Assembly (NCBI GenBank): GCA_002339755.1
Contig: DDKT01000055.1
Coordinates: forward strand, 1-32,509
Direction: 5' to 3'
DNA from: Patescibacteria group bacterium UBA2591
GTDB taxonomy: Bacteria; Patescibacteriota; Patescibacteriia; UBA2591
Length of the DNA stretch: 32,509 nucleotides
Under the pieces are notes generated by a model, which saw nothing but the letters and a program-made list of their open reading frames with translations, was not told where the DNA came from and made no database searches. This document shows, piece by piece, positions 1-9,589 of the stretch (position 1 is its first letter; every line of letters starts with the position of its first letter). The position numbers were made by a program, and so were the translations under genes.

Positions 1-27
1 TCATATCATATGGACCAGTACAAGCCC

Positions 28-56
28 TTGACAAATTTTTTAAGATGTGTTATAAT
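28..56 (+). promoter_or_regulatory. sigma70-type consensus promoter (TTGACA-17-TATAAT, TG-extended -10)
   Basis: TTGACA at 28-33, 17-nt spacer, TATAAT at 51-56, TG at 48-49. Both hexamers match consensus perfectly. Predicted start is near 63. Confidence 0.55.
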
Positions 57-147
57 AAACCTGGGTTGAATGAAATGTTCGGCCCAACAAGTCAACAAAA
101 AATAAAATAAATAAATAGGCTCTTTAAAAAGGGCCAAGGAAAGAAAC

Positions 148-233
148 CAGACGACCCCTCAACGGGGGTCGTTTTTTAACGGGAAAATGGCTCCTCTAGG
201 GGTCGTCTGAAAAGATAGTTCTTTGAAAAATAA
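148..233 (+). repeat. structured module copy 1 (divergent): 11-bp helix plus conserved tail AGTTCTTTGAAAAATAA
   Basis: CAGACGACCCC (148-158) pairs with GGGGTCGTCTG (199-209). Tail AGTTCTTTGAAAAATAA at 217-233 is identical to the tails at 869-885, 1220-1236 and 3198-3214. Confidence 0.5.
152..177 (+). terminator. intrinsic terminator-like hairpin inside module copy 1
   Basis: CGACCCC (152-158) / GGGGTCG (165-171), 6-nt loop, then TTTTTT at 172-177. Confidence 0.5.
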
Positions 234-362
234 ATAAAACTTAAGGTCATGGTGACTACTTTATTTACTAATTTTTTAGCAGGTAGAGTGGTCATCATGA
301 CCGAGGTGACGACGGCCTCAAAAATTTTCGGTCGAGCCATAAAAAAAGAGGAGGTGATTTTT

Positions 363-542
363 ATGTTAACGGAGAGTGGTCAACTCCAAGTGATAATTGG
401 AGTTCTAGCCCTTGCCACAGCAACCCCAGTTGTTCTGAAAAATATCTTTAAAATTAAAAATGGTCTCCTAAGATGGTCATTAATGCTTTTCATCTGGGGC
501 TTGCTTTATTTCTTTGGCAAAGAATACTGTGGAGTATTTTAG
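363..542 (+). CDS. small hydrophobic protein (59 aa, two predicted TM segments), unknown function
   Basis: Internal ATG of ORF 249..542 is preceded by AAAGAGGAGGTGAT 5 nt upstream. The product MLTESGQLQVIIGVLALATATPVV...WSLMLFIWGLLYFF has two hydrophobic stretches. No family recognised. Confidence 0.35.
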   Translation: MLTESGQLQVIIGVLALATATPVVLKNIFKIKNGLLRWSLMLFIWGLLYFFGKEYCGVF

Positions 543-798
543 CCAAAGAGTTTTTAAGAACCCGCCTTCGTGGAGAGAATCGAAGGGGTAAGAGAAATAA
601 GGTTTTTCATCAGTTATAGGTTCAACCTAATGAACCTGCAAAGATGAAAAACACGAATAATCTTAACCAAGTGGTGATGTTGTGAAAAAAAATCTCACGA
701 CTAACCCTGGTGTTCCAACCAAAGCGGGGACCTTGAGGAAAAAAGGGAAAGATGGCTATCCCTATAACTCAAGAGCGACCGTAGGAACATTTAAAAAA

Positions 799-885
799 GG
801 GAAGACAAAATCTTCCCTCCCCATCCCAGCTTAGCAAGCCCTGGTAGGTTGGGATGGGGGGATTAAATAGTTCTTTGAAAAATAA
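799..885 (+). repeat. structured module copy 2 (hairpin 1, hairpin 2, conserved tail)
   Basis: GGGAAGA (799-805) / TCTTCCC (811-817). CCCCATCCCA (819-828) / TGGGATGGGG (850-859). Tail ATTAAATAGTTCTTTGAAAAATAA at 862-885. Confidence 0.6.
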
Positions 886-1134
886 GTAAAAGATAAAGTA
901 AAAAAAGTACTTACTTTGTCACTACTTAGAAAATAAAGTTCTCAGATTGGGATAGCTGTTCGACTACCAAGGAAGGTGGTCCTTCCTCTACGCTATTCTC
1001 CTTGGTTATAGCTTAGACAATTTGTTTTGCAACATTAGCGCTATACTGAGGATTCAAGATCCAACCAAAGTTGCAATCTTGAGTGAATGGTTCAGAGAGA
1101 GGATGAGCTATCTCACTGAGAATTTAAAACCAAA

Positions 1135-1236
1135 GAGGAAAATCAGAAGAGATTCACTGGTTTTCCTCTCCCCACCCTAGTCTGTCAAGCCCTGGTAGGT
1201 TGGGATGGGGGGATTAAATAGTTCTTTGAAAAATAA
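1135..1236 (+). repeat. structured module copy 3
   Basis: GAGGAAAA (1135-1142) / TTTTCCTC (1161-1168). CCCCACCCTA (1170-1179) / TGGGATGGGG (1201-1210) with one mismatch. Tail ATTAAATAGTTCTTTGAAAAATAA at 1213-1236. Confidence 0.6.
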
Positions 1237-1373
1237 AATCCTGCTGGGTTTCGGCGTAGAGTTTCTAAAGAAATTTGGGAATTGTACGCCGAAACTCGGC
1301 TCCTGCAGAGGTGGTCTCCGCAGAAAACTACCCATAAGTCCTCTCTGAAACGAAAGGGAGGCAAGGAGGAAAA

Positions 1374-3038
1374 ATGTTTGAGAAGGGAACTTATGAAGAA
1401 TCTGGCCCTTTTGCGATTTTTATCTACACCAAGAATGGCAATTATGTTAAAAAGAAAATCTACTACACTTCGCTTTCTGATGTAAATGAAGACATCTCCC
1501 GAATAGAAGAAAACGAAATAGGGGATTGGGGAATGATCGAAGTGCGTAAATGTTCGCAACATAAACATTCGTCACAAATTCGCAATTACTATTGCAACTG
1601 GAAAGTGCTCCATACCTACGCTCCCTCGTGGGTTAAGCCATGTTCTCGTTGTGGACGACTCGCGAAAAATTATCTTTATCACCCCGATTGTTATCCACTA
1701 ACTGAAAGAGAAAGTTGGGTTTGCGATGCTGAATATCTTCCTTCAGCGGACTCTCCCCCAATTCCCAGAAAACTTGAGGACCTGAAAACCGACATCCAGA
1801 TCGCACAGGAGATTGGGAAAAAAATTGCTGAGCGTAAACCTGAGATTATTAATGTAACAAGAGATTTTCGAGTTCGGCTAGCCTTGGATCTGAAGGAGAT
1901 TACTGAAAATGCCTGTTGGCTATTCGAAGCAGAAGTGAAGAAAAAAGAGATAAGAGGAGTATCTATCTATCTAGCCGAGAGAGAGAAAGGGTCTTTCGAA
2001 AAGAAATTTTTGGTAGGTGAAAGAGAATGGACGGAGATAGAGAAGTTAAAGACAAAAGAAGATTTAGAGAATTTAAAGAACAATCTAAAAAAAGAAATAG
2101 AAAAACTTGTTCCTCTCCAAGTTTTCTTTTTACCTCTCGAAATTTCATTAATCGAGAGAATCCTTTCTGATAATTCAGTGAAGATTCTTTTTGTCTTCGG
2201 TCATCGCTGGGCTAACAAGGAAATAATAGTTTTCGAAAAAAATCAACAATTATTGGAGTTCTCCTATTCCCTAGAACAAGATGAAGGCGGAAAAAAGAAG
2301 AAAAAATTTTCTCACCTAGAAGCAATTAATGCTCCTTTGTCGAATATCTGTTATTACGAAGAGAGATACGGAATTCGAATAAAAACAAAGATTACCAATA
2401 AAGAATTCATTCAGTATCTTCGAAGCGAAGAATATCTCTCTTCTGGGAAGAAATTCTCTGAACACTTTGAATGGCGCAACTATCATTTCGCAGAATTTGA
2501 AGATGTCACTTTAGAAGTTCTTGAGAGACAAACAAAAGAGACAATTGAAAAAGTTACAGAAAAAATTGACAAATACAAACAGAAAAGGAGTTGGTTTAAC
2601 CATAGCTTTCAATTTGGTATCAACGATAGGGATAGAGGAGAGCGAATTAGAAAAGAAGCGGTGAGAAAACTCATTGAAGTCATCCGAGAGAAAAGGCCCG
2701 ATTGGATTCGATATAGTCCTAATGCTTATGAGCTTCATGGGTCTTTCTTTGTGGATGACGGATCTACGATGGGGGTTCTTCATCCGAACACGCCTGTGGA
2801 GGTCAAGACTGCCCTTACCGTGCTTGATAAAGATGAAATTCTGCTTTGGCTAACGGCACTTCTTGAAGGGAAGGTCTCGCTTTCTGGAGAAACAGTAGGA
2901 CAGTCGTCTTCTAATACCTGTCCTAAGTGTGGAAGTTTCGCCACATCTTTTGCGACTAGGCAAAAGATTTTTTATCGTTGTTCATTTTGCGGTTTCTCTA
3001 CACAGGAAGAAAATCTTGCTTCTTTTCCAACCGATTAA
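1374..3038 (+). CDS. Cys-rich hypothetical protein (554 aa) with C-terminal CxxC...CxxC zinc ribbon; possible very divergent TnpB/Cas12-like C-terminus
   Basis: Long ORF with AAGGAGGA 5 nt upstream of the ATG. N-terminal Cys cluster (CSRCG...HPDC), K/E-rich central coiled-coil-like region. C-terminus is SSSNTCPKCGS...FYRCSFCGFSTQEENLASF. No family identified with certainty. Confidence 0.75.
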   Translation: MFEKGTYEESGPFAIFIYTKNGNYVKKKIYYTSLSDVNEDISRIEENEIGDWGMIEVRKCSQHKHSSQIRNYYCNWKVLHTYAPSWVKPCSRCGRLAKNYLYHPDCYPLTERESWVCDAEYLPSADSPPIPRKLEDLKTDIQIAQEIGKKIAERKPEIINVTRDFRVRLALDLKEITENACWLFEAEVKKKEIRGVSIYLAEREKGSFEKKFLVGEREWTEIEKLKTKEDLENLKNNLKKEIEKLVPLQVFFLPLEISLIERILSDNSVKILFVFGHRWANKEIIVFEKNQQLLEFSYSLEQDEGGKKKKKFSHLEAINAPLSNICYYEERYGIRIKTKITNKEFIQYLRSEEYLSSGKKFSEHFEWRNYHFAEFEDVTLEVLERQTKETIEKVTEKIDKYKQKRSWFNHSFQFGINDRDRGERIRKEAVRKLIEVIREKRPDWIRYSPNAYELHGSFFVDDGSTMGVLHPNTPVEVKTALTVLDKDEILLWLTALLEGKVSLSGETVGQSSSNTCPKCGSFATSFATRQKIFYRCSFCGFSTQEENLASFPTD

Positions 3039-3117
3039 TTTCTTTCCTACCTAAAAGACTAAAAGATTAACGGAGAAAAGCTTTTTGAGAGAATCTTTGC
3101 AAGGATTTTGAGAAAAA

Positions 3118-3214
3118 GGGGAAGATATAAACAAAAAGTCTTCCCCTTCTATCCTAGTCTAACAAGTTTTGGTAGATTAAGATAGAAGAGATTAAAAAGT
3201 TCTTTGAAAAATAA
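3118..3214 (+). repeat. structured module copy 4, 80 nt downstream of the 554-aa ORF
   Basis: GGGGAAGA (3118-3125) / TCTTCCCC (3139-3146). CTTCTATC (3146-3153) / GATAGAAG (3181-3188). Tail ATTAAAAAGTTCTTTGAAAAATAA at 3191-3214. Confidence 0.6.
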
Positions 3215-3447
3215 AAAAGGAAATAATCCATCTCGAGTTTTAAAACAGAGGTGGTTGATATAGAGTGAATTTCTAGATAATCCGATTTCTAAAAAGAATT
3301 CGGTTGAAATAAAAACCTTAAAAAAAGAGATTGTTTACAAAACACGTACCCAAGGGCTGAATTCTTAAAATCTTTTCTTCTGAAAGAAAGGGCGGAATGA
3401 AAAAGAGGAAAAGAAAGAGGCCTTGGATGAAAAAAGGAGGTGAGCTT

Positions 3448-3783
3448 ATGGTAGAAGTATTTACTGATGAGGTAAGCTATAGAAACTCCCTTGAGAGAGC
3501 TATCAAGAGAGTCTGCGGGGAAATGGATGCATATGTTGTCTATGTTGACCTAATAATAAGCCCCTCAGATAACCGAATGGATCATAGGGGACTGGATTTA
3601 GCTCTTGCTCTTCTCGACCCTGCAAAGAAACCCATCATCCTTTACGGGCTTGACGATGAGAGTTATCTATCTTCTGACCCTCGTTTCATCAGCCTAATGG
3701 AAAAGCAAAGAGTGGGTTACATTACAGCTTCTTTCGAGCTCAAGGAATTAAAAGTCCTCTATGAGAAGTTATTGAAAGAATAG
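3448..3783 (+). CDS. stand-alone receiver-like (CheY-fold) domain protein, degenerate
   Basis: Start is placed at the internal ATG preceded by AAAGGAGGTGA (ORF track start 3397). Pattern VEVFTDE ... VVYVDLIISP..MDHRGLDLALAL ... PIILYG ... GYITASF mimics REC beta1/beta3/beta4/beta5. The usual Thr/Ser and Lys positions are not conserved. Confidence 0.5.
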   Translation: MVEVFTDEVSYRNSLERAIKRVCGEMDAYVVYVDLIISPSDNRMDHRGLDLALALLDPAKKPIILYGLDDESYLSSDPRFISLMEKQRVGYITASFELKELKVLYEKLLKE

Positions 3784-3947
3784 ATAGCTCGTTGGCAGAG
3801 AACTGCTTCGGCCCGCATCAGGCCGAGACTCTTAGAGTCAAAAGTCGACCAGGAGAAAGACTATGATGTCCTGCCGTCACCTTATTTTCTCCTATTCCAA
3901 GAAAAAAGTCTAGGAGAAAACCCTTTCTCTGCCAAAAGGGTGACAAA
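3772..3947. repeat. left arm of ~176-bp inverted repeat
   Basis: The reverse complement of 4248-4423 aligns over the whole length. By hand alignment there are 11 substitutions, all transitions, plus two small indels. The arm begins in the last three codons of the receiver-like ORF. Confidence 0.9.
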
Positions 3948-3962
3948 ATAAAGAGAGTACAA

Positions 3963-3996
3963 AGAGGGAAAGCCAAAGCTTTCCCTCTCTTTCTTT
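3963..3996 (+). terminator. intrinsic terminator-like hairpin in the spacer between the inverted repeats
   Basis: AGAGGGAAAGC (3963-3973) / GCTTTCCCTCT (3978-3988), 4-nt loop, then CTTTCTTT. Confidence 0.4.
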
Positions 3997-4247
3997 AAAA
4001 GAGAATTAATAAAAACTTAGTGGCTATTATAAAAAAGAAGAGTTTTTTGTAAAAAACATATAGAAAATAAGAAAAATTAGTAATATCTAAAAAATAGTAA
4101 AACCTGCCAAAATCGATAGAACAAAAACTTGTTCAAATCAAAATATAACTGATACTTAATTAAAAAAGACTCTAAACTAAATTTGTTCTCTGAGTTAAAT
4201 AATCCCAAAATAGAAGAGCCTGAGGAATCCCCAGACATAATCATTAG

Positions 4248-4423
4248 CTTTGTCACCTTTTTGGGCAGGGAAAGGGCTTTTTCCTGGACTTTTCTTGGAA
4301 TAGGAGAAAATAAGGTGACAGCAGGACATCATAGTTTTTTTCCTAGTCGACTTTTGACTCTAAGAATCTCGGCCTGATGCGGGCCGAAGCAGTTCTCTGC
4401 CAACGAGCTATCTGTTCTTTCAA
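4248..4423. repeat. right arm of ~176-bp inverted repeat
   Basis: See left arm. The 300-bp AT-rich spacer lies at 3948-4247. Confidence 0.9.
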
Positions 4424-4880
4424 CCCAAATTTGACACTTTTCTGGTAATTTTGGAGAATTTGGAGTAAATGTAAGCAGAGGGGTTAATTAAAATAAAATT
4501 AAAAAAATTGAAAAATCAAACAAAATTAGGATTAAGGTTGAGCACTCTATCTTAAAATGCAAAAGATTCAAGATTTTAAAACAAATTTATTGTCATTCTT
4601 TGAAAAGGCTATTATCAGAGATTTCAAATTATTGGATTAGTGAATTTTAAAATCAAAGAAAGTATTAAACAACTCGAACAATCATTTTTAATAACTCAGA
4701 TTAAACGATCTATTCTGGTAACAATCTAAAGATTCTGGGGCAAGAGGACTTTTTAGCCCCTGATAAAACTATTAAACAACATTTTTAGTAAATGAGATTG
4801 AGGTTAATTAATAAAGATATACTAAATTTCGACCCTTTTTTTCATTTTACCAAATATTTGCTTCACTTACTTTTTAAATC

Positions 4881-5145: not shown

Positions 5146-5173
5146 TTGACTTTTTTTTATTTTAGGGTAAAAT
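5146..5173 (+). promoter_or_regulatory. promoter of RNase P RNA (TTGACT-16-TAAAAT)
   Basis: TTGACT at 5146-5151 and TAAAAT at 5168-5173. The predicted start, ~7 nt downstream, coincides with the P1 5' strand at 5181. Confidence 0.55.
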
Positions 5174-5180
5174 AGAAAGT

Positions 5181-5634
5181 GTCTGAGTAGATCGGGTAAT
5201 CGCCTTTTATTTTTAGACCAAATTTTTAGGCCAAAATAGCCAAATAACTAAAAATAAAAGGAGGAAAGTCCGAACACCATTTTATGAATAGTCGCTAACA
5301 GCGACCGGGAGCAGTTCTGGAAACTATTTTTAAACTATAAATTGTTTTTAAAATAGGATCAGAGCGAAACCTAGGGAAAGTGCCACAGAGACCATACTAA
5401 CTTATAGTTCTATAAAGTAAAAGGTGAAAAGTGAAAGGGTGTTCTTTTTTGGAAAATTTTAAAAGAGCTACTTTTCTCTCTGATAAGGTGACTTATCAGA
5501 GTGGTAAACCCTATTCGGTGAAAGGCCAAATTTTGGTGGGCCGTTTGAGCTTGATAGCAATATCAAGCCTAGATAGATGATTACCTAGGGTAGAAAATAC
5601 CTGAACAGAATTCGGCTTATAGATCTGCTTAGAC
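5181..5634 (+). ncRNA. rnpB: RNase P RNA, bacterial type A
   Basis: GGAGGAAAGTCCGAACAC (P4 5' strand) at ~5261-5278, AGGGAAAGTGCCACAGAGA, GGTGAAAGGGTG-like GTGAAAAGTGAAAGGGTG, GGTAAACCC, GGCCAAAT, and ACAGAATTCGGCTTAT near the 3' end. P1 is GTCTGAGTAGATC (5181-5193) / GATCTGCTTAGAC (5622-5634). P2 is GGTAATC / GATTACC. Confidence 0.9.
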
Positions 5635-5657
5635 AACTCAATATCATCATCAAAATT

Positions 5658-7076
5658 ATGAAAAAATCTGAATTAGTTTTTGCAACAGTTTTTGTGCCGT
5701 TAGATTTCTTGATGCTCCTTTTGGCAGGCATTACTGCTTATCTTTTAAGATTTAAAACTCCTCTTCTTCAATTAAGGCCAGGGGTTTTTATTTGGTCTTT
5801 CCAAGAATATCTTCTTTTAGTAGCTGGAACAGCTATTTTTTTAATTATTATTTTTGCTTTAGCAGGAGTTTATCAAATAAGAGAACTTAGACGTAGTTTT
5901 TTAAATCAAGGATTTAAAATTTTTATGGCTTGTTCCACGGGAATGATGTTTTTAGTAATTTATATTTTTTTTCATCGAGAATTTTTTACTTCTCGATTTA
6001 TTATTTTAGCTGGCTGGTTTTGGGCTATTATTTTTGTTATTTTCGGTCGTTTAATTATCCGTCTTATTCAACGAAGTTTGTTTAAAAAAGGTGTGGGCGT
6101 CCATCGAGTAGTAATTATTGGCGAAAGTAAGATAGCAGAAGAAATATCCAAGGAATTATACCGAAATCTTCGATTGGGTTATAAAATTGTAAAAAGATTC
6201 AAAGATTTTGATGAACAAACCAAAACTCAAATTTTAGAAATTAAAAACTCTCTTGGATTAGACGAAGTTATTTTAGCCAATCCAGAATTTTCTAGAAAAG
6301 AAAGTTTAGAACTTTTAGATTTTTGTTTTGAACATCACTTAACTTTTAAACAGGCTACTGATTTACTGGAGGCGCAAATTAGAAATATCGAAGTTGATAC
6401 TCTCAATGGCGTGCCGATTATTGAGATAAAAAGAACTCCGCTTGATGGTTGGGGGAAAATTTTAAAAAGAATTTTCGATATCATTGGTTCATTAATTTTG
6501 ATTATTTTATTTTTACCTATAATGATTCTAACCGCTATTGCTATCAAACTTGATTCCAAGGGACCAATTTTATTTAGACGTTTAGATGACGGAAGTCCCT
6601 TAAAAAGAATAGGAGAAAAAGGAAAGTTATTTAATTATTTTAAATTTAGATCAATGAAACCAAGGACGCATAATCTTCGTTATACTATCTTGGCTAATCA
6701 AGATTTACGGAAAGATTCTCCTTTGGTAAAAATAAAAGATGACCCACGGATAACTAGAGTAGGAAGATTTATTCGTCGTTTTAGTATTGATGAATTGCCA
6801 GAATTTTTTTTAGTTTTGGTTGGGAAAATGAGTCTAGTCGGACCGAGGCCGCATTTACCAGAAGAGGTAGATAAATACGAAAGACACCATAAAAGAGTCT
6901 TAGCTTTAAAACCTGGCGTAACAGGCTTAGCTCAAATTTCTGGTCGTAGTGATCTTAGTTTTGAGGAAGAAGTGAGATTGGATACTTATTATATTGAAAA
7001 TTGGTCAATAGGATCGGACTTACGAATTCTTTTTAAAACACCCCTAGCTGTTCTTAAAAACAGAGAAACACTATAA
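5658..7076 (+). CDS. polyprenyl-phosphate glycosyl-1-phosphate transferase (bacterial sugar transferase, WbaP/EpsB-like)
   Basis: Multiple N-terminal TM segments. C-terminal catalytic domain motifs are DELPEFF..L.G.MSLVGPRP and KPGVTGLAQISGRSDLSFEE...D.YYIENWS...DL.IL.KT. Confidence 0.9.
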   Translation: MKKSELVFATVFVPLDFLMLLLAGITAYLLRFKTPLLQLRPGVFIWSFQEYLLLVAGTAIFLIIIFALAGVYQIRELRRSFLNQGFKIFMACSTGMMFLVIYIFFHREFFTSRFIILAGWFWAIIFVIFGRLIIRLIQRSLFKKGVGVHRVVIIGESKIAEEISKELYRNLRLGYKIVKRFKDFDEQTKTQILEIKNSLGLDEVILANPEFSRKESLELLDFCFEHHLTFKQATDLLEAQIRNIEVDTLNGVPIIEIKRTPLDGWGKILKRIFDIIGSLILIILFLPIMILTAIAIKLDSKGPILFRRLDDGSPLKRIGEKGKLFNYFKFRSMKPRTHNLRYTILANQDLRKDSPLVKIKDDPRITRVGRFIRRFSIDELPEFFLVLVGKMSLVGPRPHLPEEVDKYERHHKRVLALKPGVTGLAQISGRSDLSFEEEVRLDTYYIENWSIGSDLRILFKTPLAVLKNRETL

Positions 7077-8899: not shown

Positions 8900-9589
8900 A
8901 TGAAAGATTTTTCTAAGCTGGAAAGAAAACTCGGAATTAAATTCAAAAATAAAGATTTGCTTATTCAGGCTATGGTTCATCGTTCTTATTTAAACGAAAA
9001 ACCAAACTTTTATTTATCTCACAATGAACGTTTAGAATTTTTGGGAGACGCAGTTTTAGAATTAATAGTAACAAGACATCTTTATAATAATTATCCAAAC
9101 CCAGAGGGCGAATTAACTAACTGGCGAGCTAGTTTAGTTAATGCAAAAATACTTTCAGAAACAGCTCATGAATTAGGATTAAACAACTATCTTTTTCTTT
9201 CTAAAGGTGAAGCTCGAGAGGAAAAAAGTAAGGCTCGGCAGTATATTTTAGCTAACGCTTTTGAAGCTTTAATCGGAGCTATTTATCTTGATCGAGGACT
9301 TAAACAAACTCGATTTTTTATTGAAAAATACCTACTAACTAAACTTCCTCATATTTTAGAAGCTAAACTCTTTATCGATCCCAAAAGTTGGTTTCAAGAA
9401 ATAGCTCAAGAAAAAATGGGCATCACTCCTACCTATCAAGTTCTTGCAGAATCAGGGCCAGATCACGCAAAGTATTTTAAAGTCGGGGTCTTTTTAAAAG
9501 ACGAATTAGTAGCTACTGGTGGAGGCAATTCCAAACAAGAGGCTCAAGTGGAGGCAGCTAAAAAAGCGCTTGAGAAAAAGGGGTGGTAA
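8900..9589 (+). CDS. rnc: ribonuclease III
   Basis: Signature NERLEFLGDAVLELIV, EALIGAIYLD, and a C-terminal dsRBD (PKSWFQE...GPDHAK.F.V.V......G.G.SKQEAQ..AAK.AL). Confidence 0.93.
   Translation: MKDFSKLERKLGIKFKNKDLLIQAMVHRSYLNEKPNFYLSHNERLEFLGDAVLELIVTRHLYNNYPNPEGELTNWRASLVNAKILSETAHELGLNNYLFLSKGEAREEKSKARQYILANAFEALIGAIYLDRGLKQTRFFIEKYLLTKLPHILEAKLFIDPKSWFQEIAQEKMGITPTYQVLAESGPDHAKYFKVGVFLKDELVATGGGNSKQEAQVEAAKKALEKKGW

What the first reader, a model, noticed from the sequence alone, without database searches (positions are those of the whole stretch)
148..3214. Four same-strand copies of a two-hairpin module with covarying stems, a conserved loop and an invariant tail
Copies lie at 148-233 (divergent), 799-885, 1135-1236 and 3118-3214. 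The last three each consist of an A-tract, hairpin 1, hairpin 2 and a tail. Hairpin 1 stems are GGGAAGA/TCTTCCC, GAGGAAAA/TTTTCCTC and GGGGAAGA/TCTTCCCC. Hairpin 2 stems are CCCCATCCCA/TGGGATGGGG, CCCCACCCTA/TGGGATGGGG and CTTCTATC/GATAGAAG. The hairpin 2 loop core ...CAAG-yyy-TGGTAGrTT is conserved, and the tail is ATTAAAwAGTTCTTTGAAAAATAA. Between copies 2 and 4 both stems have entirely different sequences yet remain paired, while loop and tail stay fixed. That pattern indicates selection on a folded RNA or ssDNA rather than recent duplication. Copy 1 keeps only the tail, behind an 11-bp helix. A partial fifth tail (ATTCTTTGAAAAGG) sits at 4596-4609. I do not recognise this as any named RNA family or repeat class.
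Basis: seen in the sequence. Interest (0 to 1): 0.8.

Follow-up and report, generated by a model that had tools for sequence, protein, structure and literature searches.

The report
Repeated boxA antitermination signals with hairpins
The four repeats are real, but their invariant "tail" is the boxA sequence that bacteria use in ribosomal RNA operons to make RNA polymerase resistant to termination, so this is an unusually dense set of a known kind of signal in a foreign gene island of a Patescibacteria genome, not a new RNA class.

Summary
The 17-mer AGTTCTTTGAAAAATAA occurs exactly four times, all on the + strand, each 7-8 nt after a strong hairpin. Hairpin 2 of copies 2-4 keeps pairing through C-G to U-A and G.U changes that fit + strand RNA only.

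The tail is not novel. GTTCTTTGAAAA is the boxA element of rRNA operons. It matches 10 of 11 positions of the published consensus GYTCTTTAANA. It is identical to the 16S-23S spacer boxA that I read in Priestia and Clostridium estertheticum rRNA operons, where a hairpin also ends 1-10 nt upstream.

The same 17-mer lies in or next to tRNA gene arrays, on the tRNA strand, in 7 of 42 phage contigs that carry it. A fifth boxA match (GCTCTTTAAAA, 119-129) follows a consensus promoter at 28-56.

The modules sit in a higher-GC island of orphan genes. About 1.5 kb of it is highly structured untranslated RNA, and it is absent from two relatives.

Best reading: rrn-type boxB-like hairpin plus boxA sites that load Nus factors. 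Nus binding and the host's own rRNA boxA are untested.

One phage contig shares the boxA and a hairpin motif (UGGUAGGUU). This leaves room for an N-like variant.

The parts
28..56 (+). Consensus sigma-70-type promoter-like site, TTGACA-17 nt (with TG)-TATAAT. Probable start of the transcription unit that contains all modules.
   Evidence: 12 of 12 matches. The rnpB gene in the same window has a similar site at 5146-5173.
119..129 (+). Extra boxA match, GCTCTTTAAAA, the same 11 bases as the E. coli 16S-23S spacer boxA. It lies about 57 nt after the predicted start and inside a small hairpin at 118-135.
   Evidence: pattern GYTCTTTRANA; E. coli spacer TGCTCTTTAAAAA; hairpin.
148..209 (+). Copy 1 hairpin, about 26 bp in the MFE. 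Its inner part (151-172 plus T-run 173-178) has the shape of an intrinsic terminator.
217..233 (+). Copy 1 tail, containing boxA (GTTCTTTGAAAA at 218-229).
792..817 (+). Copy 2 A-tract plus hairpin 1 (GGGAAGA/TCTTCCC, 799-817). Read on the - strand this is a hairpin followed by TTTTTT, an intrinsic-terminator shape.
   Evidence: sequence read directly.
819..859 (+). Copy 2 hairpin 2 (boxB-like): 15 bp including two G.U pairs. Contains UGGUAGGUU.
869..885 (+). Copy 2 tail, containing boxA (870-881).
1135..1168 (+). Copy 3 hairpin 1 (GAGGAAAAUCAG/CUGGUUUUCCUC), preceded by an A-rich tract.
1170..1210 (+). Copy 3 hairpin 2 (boxB-like): about 20 bp with several G.U pairs.
1220..1236 (+). Copy 3 tail, containing boxA (1221-1232).
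3118..3146 (+). Copy 4 hairpin 1 (GGGGAAGA/UCUUCCCC), preceded by an A-tract at 3112-3117.
3146..3188 (+). Copy 4 hairpin 2 (boxB-like). Homologous to copies 2 and 3, with five compensatory C-G to U-A changes.
3198..3214 (+). Copy 4 tail, containing boxA (3199-3210).
3963..3988 (+). Intrinsic-terminator-like hairpin with a T-rich tail after the last island gene. Probable end of the transcription unit.
4595..4608 (+). First base is A instead of G and there is no hairpin. Doubtful.

Best explanation
Each module is an rRNA-operon-type antitermination signal in the nascent + strand RNA: one or two hairpins (boxB-like) followed 7-8 nt later by boxA (GUUCUUUGAAAA).

Proposed sequence of events:
1. 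Transcription starts at the consensus promoter at 28-56.
2. It runs through about 3.9 kb holding three orphan genes and about 1.5 kb of untranslated, very highly structured RNA.
3. Each time a boxA emerges from RNA polymerase it is bound by NusB-NusE(S10). Together with NusA and NusG this converts the polymerase into a termination-resistant, faster form and keeps the leader tethered to it.
4. This protects the long untranslated stretches from Rho-type termination and helps them fold.

The repeats reload the complex at every cistron boundary. Hairpin 2 is the boxB equivalent. Hairpin 1, with its upstream A-tract, has the shape of an intrinsic terminator for the opposite strand and may block antisense transcription.

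Shown here: the sequence identity to boxA, the hairpin-boxA geometry, the strand, the RNA-level pairing and the island context. Inferred: Nus factor binding, antitermination and the single long transcript.
For: (1) GTTCTTTGAAA matches the published boxA consensus GYTCTTTAANA at 10 of 11 positions (PMC5725501). A functional Legionella CRISPR-leader boxA is GTTCTTTAAAA (PMC7862264).

(2) Real rRNA operons fetched here carry exactly GTTCTTTGAAAA in the 16S-23S spacer (Priestia, C. estertheticum). Their leaders carry GAACTTTGAAAA, GGTCTTTGAAAA or GATCTTTGAAAA. GTTCTTTGAAAACTGAAT is the conserved Mycoplasma spacer primer.

(3) In those operons a hairpin ends 1-10 nt before boxA, compared with 7-8 nt in the window. 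The order hairpin then boxA is the rrn order boxB-boxA-boxC (PMC10250234).

(4) The degenerate consensus GYTCTTTRANA hits the window five times, all on the + strand within the first 3.2 kb, against 1.5 expected over both strands of 32.5 kb.

(5) The exact 17-mer lies in or beside tRNA arrays, on the tRNA strand, in 7 of 42 phage contigs that carry it. In L195 it follows a TTGACA-17-TATGAT promoter-like sequence that I read by eye, with 12 nt between the TATGAT and the 17-mer.

(6) The untranslated stretches are exceptionally structured as + strand RNA: 63-362 has z -9.4 (versus -4.0 on the - strand) and 543-1373 has z -12.1 (versus -6.6).

(7) Phage-like contig L152 has the identical boxA with flanks (ATAGTTCTTTGAAAAATAAATAAAA) after a hairpin, downstream of a terminator and upstream of its terminase gene cluster. 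This fits independent copying of a host-lineage boxA.
Against: No rRNA operon of this genome or of any Patescibacteria could be fetched, so it is not shown that the host's own boxA is GTTCTTTGAAAA.

The presence of nusB and rho in this organism is not known.

Four to five boxA copies in 3.2 kb is far denser than in any described operon.

Conservation extends beyond the 12-nt core, to 24 nt in copies 2-4. This may reflect recent duplication or a second function.

No boxC-like element follows the tails.

The boxA match at 119-129 is sequestered in a hairpin.

The single long transcript is inferred from one promoter-like site and the lack of others.
Confidence: 0.7

Rival explanations
1. Promoter-plus-leader modules. 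UGGUAGrUU read as DNA (TGGTAGRTT) is an extended -10 promoter (TGnTAnnnT). Each module starts its own transcript, with boxA at about +10. Hairpin 2 is only an inverted repeat around the promoter.
For: TG, A(-11) and T(-7) are invariant in all five instances, while the middle base varies G/A. The distance from the hexamer to boxA (15-19 nt) resembles the 12-31 nt between the -10-like hexamers I read by eye and the 17-mer in L195, L011 and L199. L152 has no consensus promoter in the 900-nt intergenic region, and its second TGGTAGGTT lies 23 nt before a start codon, just ahead of a GGGAG Shine-Dalgarno sequence.
Against: There is no -35 element in any copy. TAGGTT matches TATAAT at only 3 of 6 positions, whereas the two credible promoters of this genome are near-consensus. 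A transcript starting there would lack the 5' arm of hairpin 2. This leaves the compensatory changes and the + strand G.U pairs unexplained. TGGTAGRTT with up to one mismatch is at chance frequency in the window.
Confidence: 0.12
2. RNase III (or other endonuclease) processing and stabiliser sites. The long hairpins between cistrons are cut, as in the phage T7 early operon, leaving protective hairpins at mRNA ends. The tail is a conserved 5' leader whose resemblance to boxA is incidental.
For: The hairpins are 15-26 bp, G.U-rich and intercistronic in a same-strand operon after a strong promoter. An RNase III gene is present in the window at 8900-9589. rRNA spacers combine boxA with RNase III stems, so both functions may coexist.
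Against: This does not explain an invariant 17-nt single-stranded sequence that equals the rRNA boxA, nor its occurrence in tRNA arrays of unrelated phages. The RNase III gene is housekeeping and not linked to the island.
Confidence: 0.08
3. A small RNA gene on the minus strand. The reverse complement of the tail would be a single-stranded seed, the reverse complement of hairpin 2 a structural stem, and hairpin 1 followed by a U-run the terminator.
For: On the - strand, hairpin 1 is followed by TTTTTT (copy 2), TTTTTCTC (copy 4) or TTTGGTTTT (copy 3), a canonical terminator shape (read directly).
Against: No promoter-like site lies downstream of any tail on the - strand. Hairpin 2 pairs worse on the - strand (82.1% versus 94.9% of cells), and one position is mismatched there in all copies. 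Folding energies are weaker on the - strand for all four copies. Copy 1 and L152 lack hairpin 1.
Confidence: 0.05
4. A DNA-level element: a recombination site (integron attC-like), the ends of an IS200/IS605-type or rolling-circle transposon, or a miniature mobile repeat that folds as ssDNA.
For: Same-strand hairpin repeats bound gene-sized segments of 652, 351 and 1978 bp in a foreign island.
Against: The tail does not fit the attC core sites (GTTRRRY / RYYYAAC) and has no complementary partner upstream of the hairpins. No integrase or transposase is found in the window. G.U-dependent pairing favours RNA. No similar repeat occurs elsewhere in the window, in relatives, or in the plasmid and phage collections.
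Confidence: 0.03

Closest known systems
rRNA operon antitermination signal (boxB-boxA-boxC; rrnTAC loading site for NusB/NusE, NusA, NusG, SuhB, S4)
   Same: The boxA core sequence is identical to the Priestia and C. estertheticum spacer boxA and matches the gamma-proteobacterial consensus at 10 of 11 positions. A hairpin of free sequence ends a few bases upstream. The signal lies on the sense strand, downstream of a strong promoter and ahead of long untranslated structured RNA. It occurs more than once per transcription unit, as with the leader and spacer copies in rrn operons.
   Different: It is not in an rRNA operon: it sits in an island of three orphan protein genes. There are four to five copies in 3.2 kb instead of two in about 5 kb. 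No boxC is present. The hairpin next to boxA has a conserved sequence (UGGUAGGUU) shared with a phage, whereas rrn boxB is not conserved in sequence. Factor binding is untested.
Lambdoid phage nut sites (boxA + boxB, bound by N and the Nus factors)
   Same: Both combine boxA with a nearby hairpin whose apical part is conserved. Both lie downstream of an early-type promoter in a mobile or foreign gene block, and a phage contig (L152) carries the same combination.
   Different: The order is hairpin then boxA, whereas lambda has boxA then boxB. No N-like protein was identified. The hairpins are much longer than the 15-nt boxB. Lambda boxA (CGCUCUUA) is a weaker match to the rrn consensus than the tail seen here.
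boxA elements outside rRNA operons (E. coli suhB 5' UTR; CRISPR array leaders; S10 operon)
   Same: A single boxA motif in a leader recruits Nus factors to a non-rRNA transcript and prevents, or in suhB promotes, Rho-dependent termination. This is needed most for untranslated RNA (PMC5725501; PMC7862264).
   Different: Those are single copies without a conserved partner hairpin, and they are described in Proteobacteria. Here the copies are repeated with hairpins in a Patescibacteria island.
Phage T7 early-region RNase III sites
   Same: Both are repeated, related hairpins between the cistrons of one same-strand operon that starts at strong promoters at the edge of the element.
   Different: T7 sites have no boxA and act by cleavage. 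Cleavage is not shown here.

Membership tests
boxA (Nus factor loading element) | Sequence match to the boxA consensus (GYTCTTTAANA in gamma-proteobacteria; GTTCTTTGAAAA-type in low-GC Gram-positive rRNA operons) | tested here: met
   10 of 11 positions match the published consensus. 12 of 12 match the Priestia and C. estertheticum spacer boxA. Five hits to GYTCTTTRANA, all + strand, all in the island.
boxA (Nus factor loading element) | Lies in transcribed RNA, sense strand, downstream of a promoter | tested here: inconclusive
   All copies are on the strand of the genes and downstream of a 12/12 consensus promoter-like site at 28-56. No transcript data are available.
boxA (Nus factor loading element) | Same sequence as the boxA of the host's own rRNA operons | not testable with these tools
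   There is no rRNA operon in the window or in the relatives' loci.
boxA (Nus factor loading element) | Binds NusB-NusE and confers resistance to termination | not testable with these tools
   Needs biochemistry or reporter assays. The presence of nusB and rho in this genome could not be checked.
rrn-type antiterminator (boxB-boxA-boxC) | Hairpin of variable sequence immediately upstream of boxA | tested here: met
   The hairpin ends 7-8 nt before boxA in all four copies, compared with 1-10 nt in seven real rRNA leaders and spacers.
rrn-type antiterminator (boxB-boxA-boxC) | boxC (G/U-rich) about 18-19 nt downstream, forming part of a leader-trailer helix | tested here: not met
   There is no common motif downstream of the four tails. 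No leader-trailer complementarity appears in the repeat list. boxC spacing is defined for Enterobacteriaceae only.
rrn-type antiterminator (boxB-boxA-boxC) | Located in an rRNA operon | tested here: not met
   No rRNA gene is in the window. The flanking genes are orphan protein genes.
Lambda-type nut site | boxA followed by a short boxB hairpin bound by an arginine-rich N protein | tested here: not met
   The order is reversed, and no N-like protein was found by Pfam, PHROGs or NCBIfam. The Lys/Arg-rich extension of ORF 3397 is probably untranslated leader.
Any Rfam family | Covariance-model match at or near the gathering score | tested here: not met
   The only hit is RNase P RNA at 5184-5635. 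The best hits on the modules score 19-25 bits against thresholds of 50-229.
Integron attC site | R''/R' core sites RYYYAAC ... GTTRRRY that pair with each other, with an integrase nearby | tested here: not met
   The tail reads GTTCTTT, not GTTRRRY. It has no complementary partner, and no integrase is in the window.

The most novel reading that the evidence does not exclude
Hairpin 2 is not a passive boxB-like stem. It would be the RNA half of an undescribed antitermination system of Patescibacteria phages and islands, analogous to lambda N-nut. In this reading a conserved apical stem-loop (yyU-GGU-AGr, within UGGUAGGUU) is bound by a dedicated phage- or island-encoded factor that cooperates with host Nus factors loaded on the adjacent boxA. 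The motif occurs in the three island copies and twice in phage contig L152, on four different outer stems. The island would then be a mobile element that carries its own chain of nut-like sites along a largely non-coding, highly structured transcript.
Probability: 0.2. Interest if true: 0.6.

Novelty: new member of a known kind. Interest (0 to 1): 0.35.

Why it matters
This result explains a striking repeat as a textbook signal in an unexpected place.

If the reading is right, boxA/Nus-dependent antitermination operates in Patescibacteria (candidate phyla radiation), where transcription control is almost unstudied. It would also show that their mobile elements and phages borrow the host rRNA signal, repeatedly, to push RNA polymerase through long untranslated, highly structured RNA.

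It also gives a simple sequence handle: a hairpin plus GTTCTTTGAAAA. This can be used to find non-rRNA Nus targets, and possibly host-phage links, in uncultivated lineages.

Finally, it shows that a short protein-binding RNA motif without an Rfam model can look like a new RNA family.

Tried and rejected
Collection scans with DNA patterns:
- TGGTAG...tail against metagenomes gave one true relative, L152.
- The tail alone in viral contigs was useful only for the tRNA-array context.
- TGGTAGRTT...GTTCTTTGAAA in viral contigs returned 28 loci, almost all inside long open reading frames and none resembling the module.

Similarity searches:
- blastn of 1-4500 against phage and plasmid collections found nothing relevant.

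Island proteins:
- The 554-aa and 111-aa proteins have no homologues by word-indexed search. Full HMMER finds about 10 proteins similar only to the C-terminal zinc-ribbon half of the 554-aa protein.
- Pfam, PHROGs, PADLOC and NCBIfam give nothing useful.
- No protein is shared between the island and L152.

Related loci:
- A relative of the L152 terminase (L206) lacks the module.
- Two genomes with the same rnpB and sugar-transferase synteny (60-62% identity) lack the island and any boxA-like 12-mer.

Readings of the tail that I rejected:
- A sigma-70 promoter: no -10 or -35 element in register.
- A sigma-54 promoter.
- A T7-like promoter.
- An attC core site.
- A mini-ORF.
- A three-frame stop signal.

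Also rejected: a pseudoknot between the loop CAAG and the tail CUUUG, because at most 4 bp form and it is not conserved.

The literature search by sequence string mostly returned primers. It was useful only for the Mycoplasma spacer primer.


Full report
**Context**

The window is part of a bacterial chromosome. It carries a class A RNase P RNA gene at 5184-5635, RNase III, SMC, glycosyltransferases and type IV pilus genes. It corresponds to contig DZAI01000151.1 of MAG GCA_022729515.1. The closest named homologues of its sugar transferase come from Candidatus Falkowbacteria and other Patescibacteria.

The first 4 kb has 37-42% G+C, against 26-36% over most of the rest of the window (two further 1-kb bins reach 39-41%). 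Its three plausible proteins are orphans with no family assignment. They are 59 aa (363-542), 554 aa (1374-3038) and 111 aa (3448-3783). The 554-aa protein has about ten relatives of its C-terminal zinc-ribbon half only.

In two relatives with the same rnpB and sugar-transferase synteny, housekeeping genes end 55-200 nt before rnpB. Positions 1 to about 5100 are therefore a lineage-specific island. The contig ends 119 nt to the left of the window, so the left border is unknown.

**Check of the observation**

The 17-mer AGTTCTTTGAAAAATAA occurs four times without mismatch, at 217, 869, 1220 and 3198, always on the + strand.

Three details need correcting.

- The 'conserved loop' of hairpin 2 is a distal helix. 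(C/U)AG(U/C)(C/U)U(A/G) pairs with UAG(G/A)UU(G/A), so hairpin 2 is a helix of 15-20 bp.
- The stems of copies 2 and 4 are homologous. They differ by five compensatory C-G to U-A transitions, two wobble changes and one mismatch. They are not unrelated sequences.
- Hairpin 1 of copies 2 and 4 is nearly identical.

Over 13 distal pairs, 94.9% of cells pair on the + strand and 82.1% on the - strand. One G.U pair is invariant. All four modules have lower folding energy on the + strand. With only three sequences the shuffle controls say nothing (235 of 500). The case for selection on structure rests on the pattern of paired transitions, not on statistics. The fifth 'partial tail' (4595-4608) is not above chance.

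**What the tail is**

No Rfam family matches the modules, but Rfam has no model for short protein-binding motifs. The core of the tail, GTTCTTTGAAAA, is boxA. This is the RNA element that binds NusB-NusE(S10) and nucleates the antitermination complex on rRNA operons and lambdoid nut sites (PMC10250234).

It matches the published gamma-proteobacterial consensus GYTCTTTAANA at 10 of 11 positions (PMC5725501). A functional Legionella CRISPR-leader boxA is GTTCTTTAAAA (PMC7862264). GTTCTTTGAAAACTGAAT is the standard primer in the conserved part of the Mycoplasma 16S-23S spacer (PMC4312986).

I then read real rRNA operons carried on PLSDB records:

- The 16S-23S spacers of Priestia aryabhattai and Clostridium estertheticum contain exactly GTTCTTTGAAAA.
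- Leaders of Priestia, C. difficile, C. estertheticum and Paenibacillus contain GAACTTTGAAAA, GGTCTTTGAAAA or GATCTTTGAAAA.
- E. coli has TGCTCTTTAACAA in the leader and GCTCTTTAAAAA in the spacer.

In six of the seven cases a hairpin ends 1-10 nt before boxA; in the C. difficile leader the only structure within 70 nt upstream is a tRNA 3' end about 25 nt away. In the window modules the gap is 7-8 nt. The order hairpin then boxA is the rrn order boxB-boxA-boxC.

**Independent support from unrelated sequences**

The exact 17-mer was found in 42 IMG/VR contigs. In seven of these it lies inside or next to a tRNA gene array, on the same strand as the tRNAs:

- L185: between two tRNA-Ile genes in a 23-tRNA array.
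- L189: 21 nt before tRNA-Cys.
- L196: 110 nt before tRNA-Tyr.
- L168: between two tRNAs.
- L177 and L180: just after a tRNA.
- L202: 300 nt before tRNA-Pro.

In L195 it follows a TTGACA-17-TATGAT promoter-like sequence (read by eye), with 12 nt between the TATGAT and the 17-mer. Stable-RNA operons are where boxA is expected.

Several genome hits lie within 100 nt of the end of a fetched stretch, pointing outward, in pairs from the same MAG (L034/L047, L011/L080, L013/L086). For L034 and L080, which cover whole contigs, this is the contig end. That is what rRNA-operon assembly breaks look like, but I could not verify it.

**The modules within the island**

The degenerate consensus GYTCTTTRANA hits the window five times, against 1.5 expected. 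All hits are on the + strand and within the first 3.2 kb. The additional hit, GCTCTTTAAAA at 119-129, has the same 11 bases as the E. coli spacer boxA. It lies about 57 nt after the predicted start of a 12/12 consensus promoter at 28-56, although it sits within a small hairpin. No other convincing + strand promoter precedes copies 2-4. The next + strand terminator-like site outside a coding region is at 3963-3988.

The simplest model is one transcript from about 63 to about 3990. About 1.5 kb of it is untranslated: 63-362, 543-1373 and 3039-3447. These stretches are exceptionally structured as + strand RNA: z -9.4, -12.1 and -3.5, against -4.0 and -6.6 for the - strand of the first two. They include 26-27 bp G.U-rich hairpins at 241-300 and 1243-1300. 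Long untranslated RNA is the classic substrate of Rho. It is also what boxA-loaded polymerase protects and helps to fold in rRNA operons.

I therefore read the modules as repeated Nus-loading sites placed before each untranslated stretch. Binding of Nus factors, antitermination itself and the single transcript are inferred, not shown.

**Hairpins**

Hairpin 2 takes the place of boxB. Hairpin 1 with its upstream A-tract is, on the - strand, a hairpin followed by a T-run. This has the shape of an intrinsic terminator for antisense transcripts. A strong - strand promoter-like site exists at 4053-4026, but this role is only an inference.

Copy 1 has a different, longer hairpin whose inner part looks like a + strand terminator.

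**The one true relative**

A metagenome scan returned 41 loci, of which only L152 resembles the module. L152 is a phage-like contig with a terminase, a DNA methylase and a tail-fibre-like gene. It has a terminator, then a 9-bp hairpin, then AATAGTTCTTTGAAAAATAAATAAAA, identical to copy 1 over 25 nt. A second hairpin follows just before the first gene of the terminase cluster.

Both L152 hairpins present ACUU-GGU-AGGU as an apical stem-loop on different outer stems. The island copies can form the equivalent yyU-GGU-AGr: CCU/AGG in copies 2 and 3, UUU/AGA in copy 4. A related phage (L206, 65% terminase identity) has a short intergenic region without the module.

The shared boxA is explained if the phage and the island both copy the host lineage's boxA. 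The shared hairpin motif is not explained by the rrn model. It is the basis of the more novel reading, an N-like factor. No candidate protein is shared between the island and L152.

**Rivals**

- Promoter reading of TGGTAGRTT as an extended -10. This keeps boxA as the leader element. It fails to explain the RNA-level compensatory changes, and there is no -35 element.
- RNase III processing. This is compatible with the boxA reading and may be additional to it.
- A minus-strand sRNA. This lacks a promoter and pairs worse on that strand.
- DNA-level recombination or transposition sites. These lack core-site matches and any recombinase, and are contradicted by the G.U pairs.

**Verdict**

It is a new, unusually dense member of the boxB-boxA antiterminator kind, in a Patescibacteria genomic island and one phage. 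A conserved hairpin motif deserves follow-up.

Noticed in passing
window 3772-3905 and 4290-4423: A 134-nt inverted repeat (96% complementary) flanks a 384-nt AT-rich segment. The segment holds a near-consensus minus-strand promoter-like site (4053-4026, 11/12) and terminator-like hairpins on both strands (3963-3988 +, 4236-4218 -). The left arm overlaps the stop of the 111-aa gene. It could be an invertible segment or a large hairpin-forming element at the right edge of the island.
   Followed up: no
window 241-300 and 1243-1300: Very long (26-27 bp) G.U-rich hairpins lie in the untranslated RNA after boxA copies 1 and 3. The whole of 543-1373 (831 nt, no convincing ORF) folds with z -12 as + strand RNA, so the island may encode structured non-coding RNA.
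   Followed up: partly
window 5146-5173 and 5184-5635: The RNase P RNA gene (452 nt, class A, with insertions relative to the 367-position model) is preceded by a promoter-like site, TTGACT-16-TAAAAT, that ends 11 nt before the gene.
   Followed up: no
window 249-542 versus 363-542: The 97-aa gene call used by the public annotation probably starts too early. Codons 1-38 overlap the long hairpin at 241-300, whereas the ATG at 363 has a strong Shine-Dalgarno sequence (AAGAGGAGGTGA). The likely product is a 59-aa hydrophobic protein.
   Followed up: partly
window 3397-3447: The alternative upstream start of the last island gene would add MKKRKRKRPWMKKGGEL, an arginine/lysine-rich N-terminus reminiscent of the boxB-binding motif of lambda N. 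The ATG at 3448 has a much better ribosome-binding site, so this is probably purine-rich leader.
   Followed up: partly
window 3448-3783: The orphan 111-aa protein is predicted, from a single-sequence model (pLDDT 79 for one of five models), to have a beta-alpha-beta receiver-like fold. The best PDB matches are response-regulator receiver domains (TM about 0.6, E about 1e-3).
   Followed up: partly
L185 7273-7289, L189 5676-5692, L196 9834-9850, L168 558-574, L177 268-284, L180 197-213, L202 4620-4636: Large phage contigs carry the exact boxA 17-mer inside their tRNA gene arrays, on the tRNA strand. This suggests that phage tRNA arrays use host Nus-dependent antitermination.
   Followed up: partly
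L152 about 6620-6720 (minus strand): Several copies of an iteron-like repeat (TTTAAAATAGATCT and variants) lie just upstream of the phage's hairpin-boxA module. A GC-rich stem (GAGAAACCCCC...GGGGGTTTCT) at about 6760-6850 has no Rfam match.
   Followed up: no
L209 14541-15927: A relative's locus carries a bAvd-like gene next to a reverse transcriptase (RVT_1), which looks like a diversity-generating retroelement, within the glycosyltransferase cluster.
   Followed up: no
L001 1-119 (contig end, left of the window): The last 80-90 bases of the contig are GC-rich (about 57%), unlike their surroundings, and contain hairpins. There is no Rfam match. This may be the edge of another structured RNA or a repeat that broke the assembly.
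   Followed up: partly
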